Assembly: GCF_006345805.1 (NCBI RefSeq)
Contig: NC_043013.1
Location: forward strand, 51,150,001-51,214,000
DNA: 64,000 nt
Origin: Octopus sinensis
Taxonomy: Eukaryota
Direction: 5' to 3'
Positions 3,070 through 61,152 of the stretch are shown here, one piece after another (the stretch's first letter is position 1; every line of letters starts with the position of its first letter). The translations under genes were made by a program, and so were the position numbers. The notes under the pieces are model-generated. The model did not search any database and was not told the origin of the DNA. It saw only the letters and a program-made list of their open reading frames with translations.

Positions 3070-3235
3070 AGGGAAAATTCACCAAAAAACAAAAACAACA
3101 AAAGACAAAGACAGGTGATGTATTAACGCTCGGGAAGTGAAAAAGTCTTTAACGTTTCGAGCCTACGCTCTTCCACAGAAAGAAACAGGGAGCGAAACAA
3201 GGAGAGGAAAGAAAGAATGTGTAGTGGCTAGCGTG
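3070..3235 (-). mobile_element. Short dispersed repeat (family E) with variant hammerhead motif
   Basis: Same sequence as 33645-33815 and 60960-61152. Contains CTTT-CTGTGGA-A-GAGC-GTAG-GCTC-GAAA-CG-TT-AAAG at 3146-3183. Confidence 0.75.
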
Positions 3236-3734
3236 CCCACCTCAGTACCCTCACTACATACTCACCACTATACACACACCCATACACACTGTTCAACTCA
3301 TCACTCACTTCAGATACCATTAAAGGGACACACACCACACCTCACTCCTCGCACACTGTTTGACTGTACACACACCAATTATCACCATCCACACCCTCAC
3401 AAACACATACTACCTGAACAGAGGCAATGCACACACACACATACACGTGTGCACACACTACTTGAAAAAGCACACATCAACTGCTACACACACACACACA
3501 TGTTACACACGTTCGAGCGAGCGCGCACACACACGTCAGACTCATTCAACCGATTCACATATACACTCTCATACACACCATTCTCACATGCAAACACACG
3601 CTTGCGCACCTTAGTACGTTGGGTTCACGATTATTATCTCCCCTTCATTTAATCTCTATATTATTATCCTTCTTTCATTCAGCCTCTTTTTCCCCAGTCA
3701 AATCAGAAAGTTGGACCGCTTAAGTATATACAGG

Positions 3735-3893
3735 TTTTCTGTTTTTTCTTTCATTCTCTCCTTTTTTTCGCTTATTTCTTTCTGTCGAAGAGCGTAGGCT
3801 AGAAATGTAAAAGGCTTTTCCATTTGCCGCAAATCTTAAACTAATACACCGGCTTGTTCTTACTACACATATCTCCGTCTTCTGTTTCTCTCT
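3735..3893 (+). mobile_element. Family E repeat, diverged copy
   Basis: CTTTCTGTCGAAGAGCGTAGGCTAGAAATGTAAAAG at 3778-3813; inverted relative to the 3070-3235 copy. Confidence 0.7.
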
Positions 3894-3989
3894 GTGTATG
3901 TGTGTATGTGTGTGTATATATATAATATATATATATATATATATATATATATATATATATATATATATATATATATATATATATATATT

Positions 3990-4396
3990 ATACTCTTTTA
4001 CTTGTTTCAGTCATTTGACTGCGGCCATGCTGGAGCACCGCCTTTAATCGAGCAACTCGACCCTGGGACTTATTCTTTGTAAGCCTAGTACTTATTCTAT
4101 CGGTCTCTTTTGCCGAATCGCTAAGTAACGGGGACATAAACACACCAGCATCGGTTGTCAAGCGATGTTGGGGGGGACAAACACAGACACACAAACACAC
4201 ACACGCATATATATATATATATATACATATATACAACGGGCTTCTTTCAGTTTCCGTCTACCAAATCCACTCACAAGGCATTGGTCGGCCCGGGGCTATA
4301 GTAGAAGACAGTTGCCCAAGGTGCCACGCAGTGGGACTGAACCCGGAACCATGTGGTTGGTAAAGAAGCTACTTACCACACAGCCACTCCTGCGCC
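3990..4396 (-). mobile_element. SINE family A, full length, in (TA)n
   Basis: Nearly identical to the 33226-33635 copy; flanked by TA repeats. Confidence 0.95.
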
Positions 4397-4449
4397 TATA
4401 TATATATATAAATTTGTTAGCTGATTTAGACGTTAAAATAGCCGTCTAA

Positions 4450-4865
4450 AGGATAGAAGTATCCATTACACTACCAGTATATTACCTATGTTTAACCATG
4501 GGCATACATATAGAAGCACATTATGCTCATAAATTATAGGTAAAGACATGGATAAACATTAGTTTATGGGGAATCAAAATTGAAAGAAAAGAGCAAATGG
4601 AGAAATATTGATGAACAACAACAATTAATATTTATGAATTCAATGTAAATAGACTGCGTCCCATCTTACGGCTGTTTCAGTTTCCAATGTTGTATGGTGT
4701 TGCTATTGATACGTTAGAAATATTTATACTTGGTAATAAAACCGACCTGAGACAGAGCTTCATCTGAGTGAAGAATAAATAAAGAAGAAGAGCAAAGAGA
4801 AGCAAAAGGGAAAAGTTGAATATGGTTGGAATGATACCATTTTCCTTGTGTGCCTCTTTGGGACA
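4450..4865 (-). mobile_element. Penelope-like pLTR remnant with mutated hammerhead
   Basis: Minus strand TTCTTCACTCAGATGAAGC...CATTGGAAACTGAAACAGCCGTAAGA matches the plus-strand motif at 55713-55835. Confidence 0.5.
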
Positions 4866-58594: not shown

Positions 58595-59152
58595 GCCTAC
58601 TATAGGTACAAAGCCCGACATATTGGGGGAGGAAGACTAATCAATTACATCGATTCCATTGCTAAACTGGTACTTATTTCATCGACCCTGGAAAGATGAA
58701 AGACAAAGTCGACCTCGGCGGAATTTGAACTCAGAACACGTAAAGACGGACGAAATGCCACTTGGCATTTTGCCTAGCGTGCTAACGATTCAGCCAGCTC
58801 GCCGCCTCGAACATTCTTTTCTGATCTAGGCAGAAGGCCCGAAATTTTGGGGGGAGGGGCCAGTAGATTAGATTGTGTGGTACCCCTAATTTAGAGGCAC
58901 ATGTAACTGCCTGTCATCTGTAAGTCGACGCGAAAGTTCTCTTTGTGTGTGTCCGTGTCGGTTACAATAGGGCCGTAAGACAAGGTAGTCAAATCTTCCT
59001 TACACAACGTGCTACTGGTACTTAATTTATTGACCCCGAAAGGATGAAAGGCAAAATCGACCTCGGCGGAATTTGAACTCAGAAAGTAAAGACGGACGAA
59101 ATGCTAGTTAGCATTTTGCCTGGCGTACTAACGATTCTGCCACCTCACCGTC
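58595..59152 (-). mobile_element. Two family B SINEs, the second carrying an inserted segment
   Basis: 58595-58806 and 58815-59152; foreign sequence at about 58876-59013. Confidence 0.88.
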
Positions 59153-59574
59153 TTGAATAGTAAAAACAATAGCAGACGCAATAACACGAACGACAGCCAC
59201 AGTAGAAAAAGAGAAAAAGAAAAACGACAACAATAGCAGCAACAAAAACAATGGAAACAACAGCAAAGAGAATAACAGAAATAACAAGAGCAACAAGGCG
59301 CAACCACAACGAGAAAAAACACCACCAACAACAAAATTAAGAGCAACACTCAGTGTAAGTAATTTTAAAGTAACCCAGAGTTTAGAATCTCGCCGTTGCT
59401 GATTCAAACAAATTCCTTCGTGCTGCAATATTAAAGAATCTCTTAAATTAGAATTGTCTCTGCTAAAATAGCAAAGTTGCACAAAATATTTCTGCTCAAA
59501 ATATGCGCATTATACGAATATATTCTAAAAGTACATTGTTTTGTTAATAGTAAAAATAATAGTATATACATATT

Positions 59575-60168
59575 TATTTATTGCCCACTGGGGCTAAACA
59601 TCGAGGGAACAAACAAGGACAGACAAAGGGTTTAAGCCGATTCCATCGACCCTAGGGAGTTACTGGTAATTAGTTTATCGACCGCGGAAGGATGAAAGGC
59701 AAAGTCGACCTCGGCGGAATTTGAACTCAGAACATAAAGACGGACGAAATACGGCTACGCATTTCGCCCGGCGTGCTAACGTTTCTGCCAGCTCGCCGCC
59801 CTATCATGATATATATATTTTTTCCTACTCTAGGCACAAGACCCGAAATTTTTGGTGAGAGGGTCAGTCGATTAGATCGACCCCCTGTACGCAACTGGTA
59901 ATTATAGTACTTAATTTATCGACCCCAAAAGGATGAAAGGCAGATGAAATACCTATTTCTTTACTACTCACAAGGGGCTAAACACAGAGGGGACAAACAA
60001 GGACAGACAAACGGATTAAGTCGATTATATCGACCCCAGTGCGTAACTCGTACTTATTTAATCGACCCCGAATGTATGAAAGGCAATTTAAACTCAGATC
60101 GTAGCGGCAGACGAAATACCGCTAAGCATTTCGCCCGGCGTGCTAACATTTCTGCCAGCTCGCCGCCT
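59575..60168 (-). mobile_element. Family B SINE cluster (monomer plus dimer)
   Basis: Heads end at about 59800 and 60167; junction GAAATACCTATTTCTTTAC at about 59946. Confidence 0.9.
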
Positions 60169-60221
60169 TATAATAGTACATATATTGCATAAGTATATAA
60201 AGTATATACTGTATATATTGT

Positions 60222-60581
60222 GGAGGTGCAATGACCCAGTGGTTAGAGCAGCGGACCCGTGGTCGTAGGATCGCGCTCTCGATTCCCAGACCGGGCGTTT
60301 TGAGTGTTTATGAGCGAAAACACCTAAAAGCTCCACGATGCTCCGGCAGGGGCTGCTGGTGAACCCTACTGTACTCTTCCACCACAACTTTCTCTCACTC
60401 TTTTTCCCCGTTTCTATTGTGCCCGTAATTCAAAGGGCCAGCCTTCTCACGCTGAATATCCCCGAGAACTACGTTAAGGGTACACGTCTGTGGAGTGCTC
60501 AGTCACTCACGTGCTCGCTGTTCTGTTGATCGGAACCCTCTGTTGAACTGGAACCCTCGTCGTCGCAACCGATGGAGTGCC
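60222..60581 (+). mobile_element. Chimeric SINE: family C head with family D tail
   Basis: 60222-60400 matches 15813-15975; 60430-60581 matches 27100-27263. Confidence 0.85.
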
Positions 60582-60959
60582 ACACACACACACACACTAT
60601 ATATATATATATATATATATATATATAGATAATACACTTCTAGTACAAGGATAATAGTTTTCAAAAATGTTTTATCAGTGGCCAGCATATTGATATAGTT
60701 GTTAAGGTGAAAATTATAAACGATTATAAACAAGGGCATTGTATGTGGTTAGACAATGTAAAGTCTATTTTTCGGCATATTGGCATAAAAAATGTTGTCT
60801 TTTGCCCAGATATATAAAACACCCTGGAAACAACTAAGACCTTTTCTTGCTAAATGTGTTGAAATCTATTTACTACCTTGGATTTTTTTATCTCATTCTG
60901 TCAATTTATATATATATATATATATATATATATATATATATATATGTGTGTGTGTGTGT

Positions 60960-61152
60960 GGATGATAGATCGGTAGCCACTACACATTCTTTATTTTCTC
61001 TCCTTGTTTCTTTCTGCGTTCCTTTCTGTGGAAGAGCGTAGGCTCGAAACGTTAAAGACTTTTTCACTTTCCGATCGTTATACTAAGATATCTGTTTGTT
61101 GTCTACACTACCTGTCTTCGTCTTTTGTTTTTTTTTGTGAATTATCCCTATG
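60960..61152 (+). mobile_element. Family E repeat with variant hammerhead (61022-61057)
   Basis: Matches 33645-33815; embedded in microsatellite. Confidence 0.75.

What the first reader, a model, noticed from the sequence alone, without database searches (positions are those of the whole stretch)
3146..61057. Multi-copy 36-nt hammerhead-like motif with a non-canonical CUGU(G/C)GA core
Seen: four copies (3146-3183 minus, 3778-3813, 33686-33721, 61022-61057) of CUUU-CUGUGGA-A-GAGC-GUAG-GCUC-GAAA-CG-UU-AAAG, three of them identical. The topology is a minimal type I hammerhead (stem I CUUU/AAAG, stem II GAGC/GCUC, palindromic ACGU stem III), but A6 is U in every copy. It sits in a short non-coding repeat of about 170-190 bp that inserts in microsatellites. 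Inference: a high-copy non-autonomous Penelope/retrozyme-like family with a variant ribozyme core that standard CUGANGA searches would miss.
Basis: partly seen in the sequence, partly recalled or inferred. Interest (0 to 1): 0.72.

Follow-up and report, generated by a model that had tools for sequence, protein, structure and literature searches.

The report
Retrotransposon hammerhead with fixed A6U core
This motif is the small hammerhead self-cutting-RNA sequence in the end repeat of a very abundant Penelope-type jumping gene; one normally fixed core letter (A6) is U in more than 15,000 copies while the rest of the motif stayed unchanged through many generations of the element, so it likely still folds and may cut slowly, but cutting is untested.

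Summary
The motif is real: three identical 36-mers and one decayed older copy. It is the minimal type I hammerhead in the terminal repeat (pLTR) of a Neptune-type Penelope-like retrotransposon. Long copies carry RT and GIY-YIG remnants directly upstream, so the 170-190 bp repeats are pLTR-only pieces of that element, not a retrozyme. U6 is the family state: 15,410 exact U6 hits genome-wide against 186 A6 and 427 C6/G6. It is derived, because sister families here and relatives in metagenomes have A6, with compensatory changes in both stems. Across nine subfamilies only N7 (6 changes) and H17 (3 changes) vary, the two positions a hammerhead leaves free; the other 34 sites never change, while 48 of 100 flank sites do. 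Copy 5' ends pile up about 70-80 nt upstream of the core, probably the RNA start, and not at the cut site, so insertions come from uncleaved RNA. Most likely a slow, dimer- or protein-assisted ribozyme; cleavage is untested. PLE hammerheads and a natural A6C variant are published; I found no published A6U, but could not read one key paper. The scan noted this family earlier in this genome, and A6U in other genomes.

The parts
3147..3182 (-). Minimal type I hammerhead motif, U6/G7 core, H17=U; predicted cut between 3151 and 3150
   Evidence: exact match; numbering from the motif anatomy
3068..3233 (-). pLTR-only copy of the Penelope-like element (subfamily S4, with a short internal deletion behind the motif), ending in an AT repeat; head to head with copy 2
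3778..3813 (+). Decayed motif of an older subfamily (U6/C7, H17=A); G10.1-C11.1 pair broken by a point change
3235..3890 (+). Older 5'-truncated copy (3' UTR plus pLTR), about 650 bp, ending before an (AT)n run; limits approximate
   Evidence: 73% over 547 nt to L229 plus a hit at 3239-3349
33686..33721 (+). Motif: stem I 33686-33689 with 33718-33721, core C3-A9 33690-33696, extra A 33697, stem II 33698-33709, GAAA 33710-33713, palindrome ACGU 33713-33716, H17 33717; predicted cut between 33717 and 33718
33653..33815 (+). pLTR-only copy (subfamily S4), next to the end of a SINE-like repeat
61022..61057 (+). Motif, identical to the one at 33686; predicted cut between 61053 and 61054
60962..61151 (+). 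pLTR-only copy (subfamily S4) between microsatellites; its 5' end lies 3 nt into the conserved GCCATG word, next to the family's pile-up of 5' ends

Best explanation
The motif is the minimal type I hammerhead in the pLTR of a Neptune-type Penelope-like retrotransposon, its A6U core is fixed and derived in this lineage, and it likely still works as a slow, dimer- or protein-assisted self-cleaving RNA kept by selection on the source elements. Shown: pLTR position, the U6 state, A6 in relatives, the hammerhead-shaped pattern of conservation, and the fixed 3' end about 100 nt behind H17 at AT microsatellites. Inferred: transcription starts about 70-80 nt upstream of the core; reverse transcription primes at the pLTR tail on RNA that is not yet cut; priming at the first pLTR of the RNA runs off its 5' end and leaves the 170-200 bp solo copies, while priming at the last pLTR leaves long 5'-truncated copies; two motifs pair through ACGU to build stem III; U6 lowers the rate, which costs little because cutting is not needed for insertion.
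For: Element identity: RVT_1 E=7e-7 at the Pfam cut-off; GIY-YIG E=0.001-0.007, below cut-off; ESM Atlas top hits GIY-YIG/HTH_animal at 0.97; DKG, YIDD and a CX4CX2C linker read in the translations, a linker that marks Neptune/Nematis in passages of 10.1101/2021.04.23.441226. Motif downstream of the ORF piece in 22 of 30 loci, U6 in 21 of those 22. Counts: U6 15,410, A6 186, C6+G6 427, reversed-pattern controls 0. A6 and C6 copies are scattered over subfamilies. Subfamily ladder, 162 of 164 rows: 0 changes at 34 motif sites, 6 at N7, 3 at H17, 73 changes at 100 flank sites with 48 variable, Fisher p=1.6e-8. An older subfamily adds H17=C with 68 of 76 U6, so H17 took C, A and U but not G. Contigs of four runs from four organism labels list, inside the 36-mer, only N7, H17 and CpG sites as variable. 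Relatives: 13,627 canonical-core hits in this genome, control 187; family B has A6 in 29 of 29 loci where the motif was found, of 30; metagenome matches have A6 in 125 of 129, some with a GIY-YIG 36-60% identical to this family's. Stem pairs in 14 hand-picked representatives: stem II 56 of 56 paired, stem I 47 of 56, with changes on both sides. 5' ends: 28 of 118 in 10 nt against 8 in the 52 nt upstream. Natural A6C hammerheads cleave slowly (PMC3088659) and prefer Mn2+ (PMC7151607); a PLE hammerhead was protein-assisted and not needed for insertion in vitro (PMC11167929).
Against: No cleavage data. In a mutational scan of another hammerhead, changes in the CUGA turn other than the C3-G8 swap gave low activity (PMC9901934 passage). 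No clear footprint of cutting: copies starting at the predicted cut were 9 among the first 100 of 143 hits, against 7 of 35 at a control site 5 nt upstream, p=0.22, and none ran on into a full unit. The monomer hammerhead fold (-5.9 kcal/mol) is not the minimum (-7.2; z=-0.5), and the one-site dimer (-12.6) is far from the dimer minimum (-20.8). Loop II and the ACUU behind stem I are also invariant, and a 15-nt flank run near the tail is too, so constraint is not limited to catalytic positions. No stem pair changes on both sides within the U6 family itself. The ladder test is partly circular, since rows were collected with at most 5 mismatches to the motif and many by exact match; the 25 rows found through the ORF and reduce this but do not remove it. 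Subfamilies and their order were set by hand, two with only 3-4 rows, and 16 variant rows were not shown.
Confidence: 0.55

Rival explanations
1. The motif descends from a hammerhead but no longer cuts; it is kept as a folded RNA element, for example a binding site for the element's protein, a signal for RT priming or translation, or a DNA element of the pLTR promoter.
For: A6 changes are strongly harmful in other hammerheads. All intact copies span the scissile bond, and there is no pile-up at the cut site. Cutting was dispensable for insertion in vitro in a Poseidon element, and Naiad PLEs spread without a detectable canonical hammerhead. Loop II and nearby flank words are as fixed as the core.
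Against: The only changing sites of 36 are N7 and H17, the two that the hammerhead consensus leaves free, and H17 used C, A and U but not G. A protein or promoter site would not be expected to copy that pattern unless it reads the hammerhead fold. Reversion to A6 never spread in nine or ten subfamilies.
Confidence: 0.33
2. The 170-190 bp copies are a separate non-autonomous family (SINE-like or retrozyme-like) that copies itself through its own short or circular RNA.
For: 39 of 60 exact hits extend 100 nt or less upstream of the core, and 5' ends pile up at one boundary, as a unit-length element would.
Against: Short and ORF-bearing copies share the same subfamily marks; 5' ends are also spread over the 70 nt behind the boundary, and 31 of 118 run more than 100 nt beyond it. 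No tandem arrays. Stem III and the long stem I of retrozyme hammerheads are missing.
Confidence: 0.08
3. U6 is a neutral or harmful change that rode along with one successful source element, and the apparent conservation is an artefact of young age and of how copies were collected.
For: Copies were partly selected on the motif; a single founder would explain why U6 is shared.
Against: Subfamilies range from 4% to 16% mean divergence and differ at 48 of 100 flank sites while 34 motif sites stay fixed; ORF-selected copies and run contigs agree.
Confidence: 0.04

Closest known systems
Minimal type I hammerheads (min-HHR) in pLTRs of metazoan Penelope-like elements (Cervera and De la Pena 2014, PMC4209133; seen: main text parts 1-2 of 4, supplement parts 1-2 of 3)
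   Same: pLTR position, U-rich 5' side, short stem I, extra nucleotide between 9 and 10.1, G10.1-C11.1, palindromic 15.1-16.1, mostly single truncated copies. The Neptune row of Fig. S3 (Acropora) has the same layout and nearly the same stem II, and its motif sequence matches the commonest metagenome hit.
   Different: All 56 rows of Fig. S3 have A6 (their descriptor required it); the core variant described there is U3-A8. Here U6 is fixed in a whole lineage.
Natural A6C hammerhead of phage Bcep176 (Perreault 2011, PMC3088659, passages and part 2 of 7 of the main section; Naghdi 2020, PMC7151607, parts 1-2 of 4)
   Same: A natural pyrimidine at core position 6; slow but detectable cleavage.
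   Different: A single phage sequence with C6, assayed; here U6 in more than 15,000 retroelement copies with an evolutionary record of constraint, not assayed.
Poseidon PLE of Anolis, PAc (Frangieh 2024, PMC11167929; passages and second part of the main text)
   Same: Hammerhead in the pLTR, AT-rich targets, insertion ends fixed at an internal RT start behind the hammerhead, uncleaved RNA as template.
   Different: No altered core reported in the parts read; ORF starts inside the ribozyme; different clade. The pile-up of 5' ends seen here was not described in the parts read.
Non-LTR retrozymes (Cervera 2020, PMC7229834, passages; bioRxiv 10.64898/2026.07.22.740005, part 1 of 5 and passages)
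   Same: Short non-coding units with a type I hammerhead, related to PLE pLTRs.
   Different: Retrozymes are defined by tandem repeats, in the 2020 paper with canonical hammerheads and circular RNA; here copies are dispersed, variably truncated and continuous with an ORF-bearing element.
Small hammerhead variants of Penelope-like retrotransposons that cleave as dimers (Lunse, Weinberg, Breaker, PMC5785218; not held, only the title seen in a reference list)
   Same: By title: PLE-linked small variants acting as dimers.
   Different: Cannot tell; it may already list position-6 variants.

Membership tests
EN+ Penelope-like element (Neptune type) | RT domain with PLE motifs (DKG, YIDD) | tested here: met
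   Pfam RVT_1 E=7e-7 in L093; motifs read in frameshifted copies L092-L094
EN+ Penelope-like element (Neptune type) | C-terminal GIY-YIG endonuclease behind the RT | tested here: met
   Pfam GIY-YIG E=0.0014-0.007, under the curated cut-off; ESM Atlas GIY-YIG clusters at 0.97
EN+ Penelope-like element (Neptune type) | CX2-5CxxC linker between RT and EN; microsatellite targets | tested here: met
   CX4CX2C in L092 and L097; 3' ends at AT or similar repeats in 58 of 60 copies. The linker is shared with Nematis.
EN+ Penelope-like element (Neptune type) | Placement in the Neptune clade on an RT tree | not tested
   No reference RT set was at hand; the clade rests on the linker and on the likeness to the published Neptune hammerhead
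EN+ Penelope-like element (Neptune type) | pLTR with tandem or inverted arrangement | tested here: met
   Tandem pLTRs 288 nt apart in L092; inverted pLTR at the 5' side in L095 and L097
Minimal type I hammerhead of PLEs | Core C3 U4 G5 A6 N7 G8 A9 / G12 A13 A14 | tested here: not met
   All positions match except A6, which is U
Minimal type I hammerhead of PLEs | Stem I, stem II with G10.1-C11.1, extra nucleotide after A9, palindromic 15.1-16.1, H17 | tested here: met
   Sequence; pairs kept with changed letters across families; H17 = C, A, U
Minimal type I hammerhead of PLEs | Homology to canonical-core hammerheads | tested here: met
   pLTR of family B aligns to window copies, 75% over 76 nt, E=2e-6; shared pLTR words with families B and C; related endonucleases beside A6 motifs
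Minimal type I hammerhead of PLEs | Self-cleavage after H17, as a dimer | not testable with these tools
   No assay; only contigs were available, which cannot show RNA ends; genomic footprint test inconclusive
Non-LTR retrozyme | Tandem arrays of short units, each with a hammerhead | tested here: not met
   1 of 60 loci with a second same-strand motif in 2.4 kb, none with three
Non-LTR retrozyme | No link to a coding element of the same unit | tested here: not met
   ORF remnants upstream in 11 of 60
Non-LTR retrozyme | Abundant circular RNA | not testable with these tools
   No raw RNA reads offered

The most novel reading that the evidence does not exclude
A6U is a selected, working class of hammerhead core: a deliberately slow or conditionally switched ribozyme (by the element's protein, by dimer formation or by metal ion) that lets a Penelope element copy uncut RNA while keeping the cut for a later step. 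It has been held through about ten successive source lineages, has possibly arisen again in other animals, and its solo-pLTR copies record both the RNA start and internal RT priming in vivo.
Probability: 0.35. Interest if true: 0.68.

Novelty: new variant of a known kind. Interest (0 to 1): 0.5.

Why it matters
Why nearly all Penelope-like elements carry a hammerhead is an open question. This genome holds a natural pair: one lineage with U6 and sister lineages with A6, with almost the same stems. Assaying them side by side, with and without the element's protein, would show whether PLEs need fast cutting, slow cutting or only the fold. If U6 cleaves, the hammerhead core consensus is wider than current descriptors allow and genome surveys miss large families: here the U6 count (15,410 exact hits of one tight pattern) exceeds that of a loose canonical-core pattern (13,627). 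The pile-up of 5' ends also gives genomic support for internal priming on uncleaved RNA, so far shown in vitro.

Tried and rejected
Rfam: no hammerhead hit. Folding of the 36-mer and longer pieces gave no stability excess, z -0.5 to +0.7; a canonical family B motif also did not fold into the hammerhead, so this test has little power. An intermediate C6 lineage: C6 copies fall in all subfamilies, but C6 is 14 of the first 100 hits in the old subfamily against about 2.4% overall, so an old C6 branch is not excluded. Footprint of cutting in 5' ends: not significant, and no canonical-core family was tested the same way. ORF link for family B: no hit in 1.5 kb upstream in 29 loci; family C gave one weak endonuclease hit, L135. 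RNA: no RNA holder listed; four runs guessed to be RNA hold the pLTR as contigs, with no splice-like joint near the motif; this is no evidence on expression or cutting. Viral contigs: 120 pattern matches, none with both stems of 3 bp or more. PDB: no relative at E<0.6. A6U in print: nine library searches; the term A6U occurred in none of the 8 papers listed, and the core strings gave no listed paper on a natural U6 hammerhead (titles and abstract starts of 20 of 56 seen). Lunse et al. is not held, and part 3 of the 2014 supplement was not read; both may bear on novelty. No measured rate for an A6U mutant was found. The idea that U6 serves a splice acceptor (UAG arises only in the A7 subfamily) was dropped, since N7 takes all four letters.
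Full report
Observation. The 36-mer occurs three times exactly, at 3147-3182 (minus), 33686-33721 and 61022-61057, with none in 100 shuffles. The fourth copy at 3778-3813 has four differences, one of which breaks the first pair of stem II. Position 6 is U in all four. The three short repeats are 166, 163 and 190 bp; the fourth belongs to an older copy of about 650 bp. The host is an animal with a 2.7-Gb genome; its other repeats look like octopus SINEs to me, which is recall and was not tested.

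What the repeat is. The best 30 genome hits share one 3' end followed by a microsatellite, and their 5' ends vary. Three of them run on upstream, and one reaches a broken reading frame. Searching with that upstream piece gave 30 loci, of which 22 (one is the query's own locus) carry the motif downstream on the same strand, 21 with U6. Longer fetches show an RT with DKG and YIDD motifs, a CX4CX2C linker and a GIY-YIG domain. Pfam gives RVT_1 at E=7e-7 and GIY-YIG below cut-off; the ESM Atlas agrees on GIY-YIG. L092 is nearly whole and ends in two pLTRs 288 nt apart. This is the layout of an endonuclease-positive Penelope-like element; the linker and the microsatellite targets point to Neptune (passages of 10.1101/2021.04.23.441226), but no RT tree was made. 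Among the first 60 exact hits on contig C1, 11 have ORF remnants within 2 kb upstream, including members of the youngest subfamily; 39 extend 100 nt or less upstream and 10 more than 700 nt. Short and long copies mix on the tree. So the short repeat is the pLTR of this element.

U6 is the family state. Exact genome-wide counts of the 25-nt pattern are 15,410 for U6, 186 for A6 and 427 for C6 or G6 (91 C and 9 G in the first 100 rows), with zero for the reversed controls. A6 and C6 copies lie at tips of all subfamilies, as point changes after insertion would. Old subfamilies are also U6: 84 U, 14 C and 2 A in the first 100 of 556 hits, and 68 of 76 in the set with C17. The 14% C is unexplained.

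U6 is derived from A6. The same genome has 13,627 hits to a loose canonical-core pattern (control 187), falling into at least three families among the 100 rows shown. Families B and C have the same stem II and homologous pLTR words, with a G-C pair where this family has C-G at the end of stem I. Family B has A6 in 29 of 29 motifs found in 30 loci. The commonest of these matches the Neptune row of Fig. S3 in PMC4209133. In 14 hand-picked representatives, stem II is paired in 56 of 56 cells and stem I in 47 of 56, with up to four standard pair types per position; these are related sequences, so this is support and not a formal test.

The motif is under hammerhead-shaped constraint. I split 162 of 164 copies by hand into nine subfamilies with mean divergence 4-16% (L163 and L193 left out as too short to place). 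Along their ladder the 34 non-free motif sites show no change, N7 changes six times and H17 three times, while 100 flank sites show 73 changes at 48 sites (Fisher p=1.6e-8). A further old subfamily has C17, so H17 has been C, A and U. Collection was partly by the motif, which favours this result; the 25 rows found through the ORF show the same letters, and contigs of four runs under four organism labels list only N7, H17 and CpG sites as variable inside the 36-mer, with depth about ten times higher on the motif than on the 3' flank (16 rows not shown). Against a purely catalytic reading, loop II and the four bases behind stem I are fixed too, and the absence of G17 rests on few changes.

How copies arise. 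The 3' end lies 85-112 nt behind H17 in 52 of 60 copies. Of 149 motif-selected copies, 118 could be placed; 28 have their 5' end within 10 nt at a conserved GCCATG word about 70-80 nt upstream of C3, 14 in the next 10 nt, only 8 in the 52 nt upstream, and 31 run more than 100 nt further. An initiator-like word (TCAGTC or GCATTC; the TCAKTY consensus is recalled) sits at that edge in several subfamilies. I read the edge as the RNA start from a pLTR promoter; an RT pause is the alternative. This fits the internal RT priming shown for an Anolis PLE, where uncut RNA was the main template (PMC11167929): priming at the tail of the first pLTR would run off the RNA start and leave a unit of up to about 200 bp. 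Every copy with an intact motif spans the scissile bond, so its template was uncut or rejoined. Copies that start at the predicted cut are not clearly enriched (9 in the first 100 of 143 hits against 7 of 35 at a control site, p=0.22), and all are short.

Does it cut? Not tested. For: catalytic G8 and G12, both stems, the palindrome and the H rule are kept, and natural A6C hammerheads cleave slowly, better in Mn2+; metazoan PLE hammerheads are weak dimers in vitro or need the element's protein. Against: CUGA-turn changes gave low activity in a full mutational scan, the hammerhead fold is not the predicted minimum as monomer or dimer, and there is no genomic footprint. I put slow or assisted cutting at 0.55 and a non-cutting but kept fold at 0.33.

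Comparison and novelty. It works like, and descends from, the minimal PLE hammerheads of PMC4209133, but fails one defining core position. All 56 rows of that paper's Fig. S3 have A6, though its descriptor required A6. Nine searches found no published natural A6U, but the paper on numerous PLE-linked variants (PMC5785218) is not held. It is not a retrozyme by the tandem-array test. Earlier notes of this scan describe what appears to be this family elsewhere in this genome, and A6U cores in PLEs of other genomes; I could not check the latter. Verdict: a real, well-supported new variant of a known kind, interest 0.5.

Noticed in passing
window 3068-3233 (-) and 3235-3890 (+): A young pLTR copy sits head to head against the 5' end of an older, longer copy of the same lineage. 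It looks like the inverted arrangement typical of PLEs, but the two belong to different subfamilies, so it is probably a later insertion.
   Followed up: partly
G000, (e.g. L119, L123, L127): At least three abundant canonical-core minimal hammerhead families in the same genome (loops UCC, UUU and a 10-nt loop); two share pLTR homology with the U6 family, the third has a different stem I.
   Followed up: partly
L093 7336-8870 (+) and L094 54-1129 (-): Another, AT-rich Penelope-like ORF, 25-27% identical to this family's endonuclease region; my pattern saw no minimal hammerhead in its 3' end.
   Followed up: no
window 1500-1900, 3977-4419, 9204-9632, 13465-13919, 18855-19256, 21205-21599, 33202-33650, 63127-63545 and others: Many copies of a SINE-like repeat of about 430 bp.
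   Followed up: no
window 22833-23037, 30538-31149, 35695-36363, 57508-60169 and others: A second dispersed repeat of about 200 bp with more than 15 copies in the window.
   Followed up: no
old subfamily, (L212, L232, L233): C6 is 14 of the first 100 hits in the old subfamily against about 2.4% overall; a short-lived C6 branch is possible.
   Followed up: partly
L367, L390, L392, L427, L431, L433, L437 (metagenome loci): Canonical-core relatives often occur as back-to-back inverted pairs whose 5' ends lie a few bases upstream of the core.
   Followed up: no
window 33722-33725 and equivalents: The four bases behind stem I (consensus ACUU; the first is changed in this window copy) and loop II are fixed in all nine subfamilies; they could form a loop-stem tertiary contact like the reverse Hoogsteen pair of full hammerheads (passage). 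Untested.
   Followed up: no
window 2814-3000: An imperfect inverted repeat of about 190 bp just left of copy 1, seen in the sequence.
   Followed up: no
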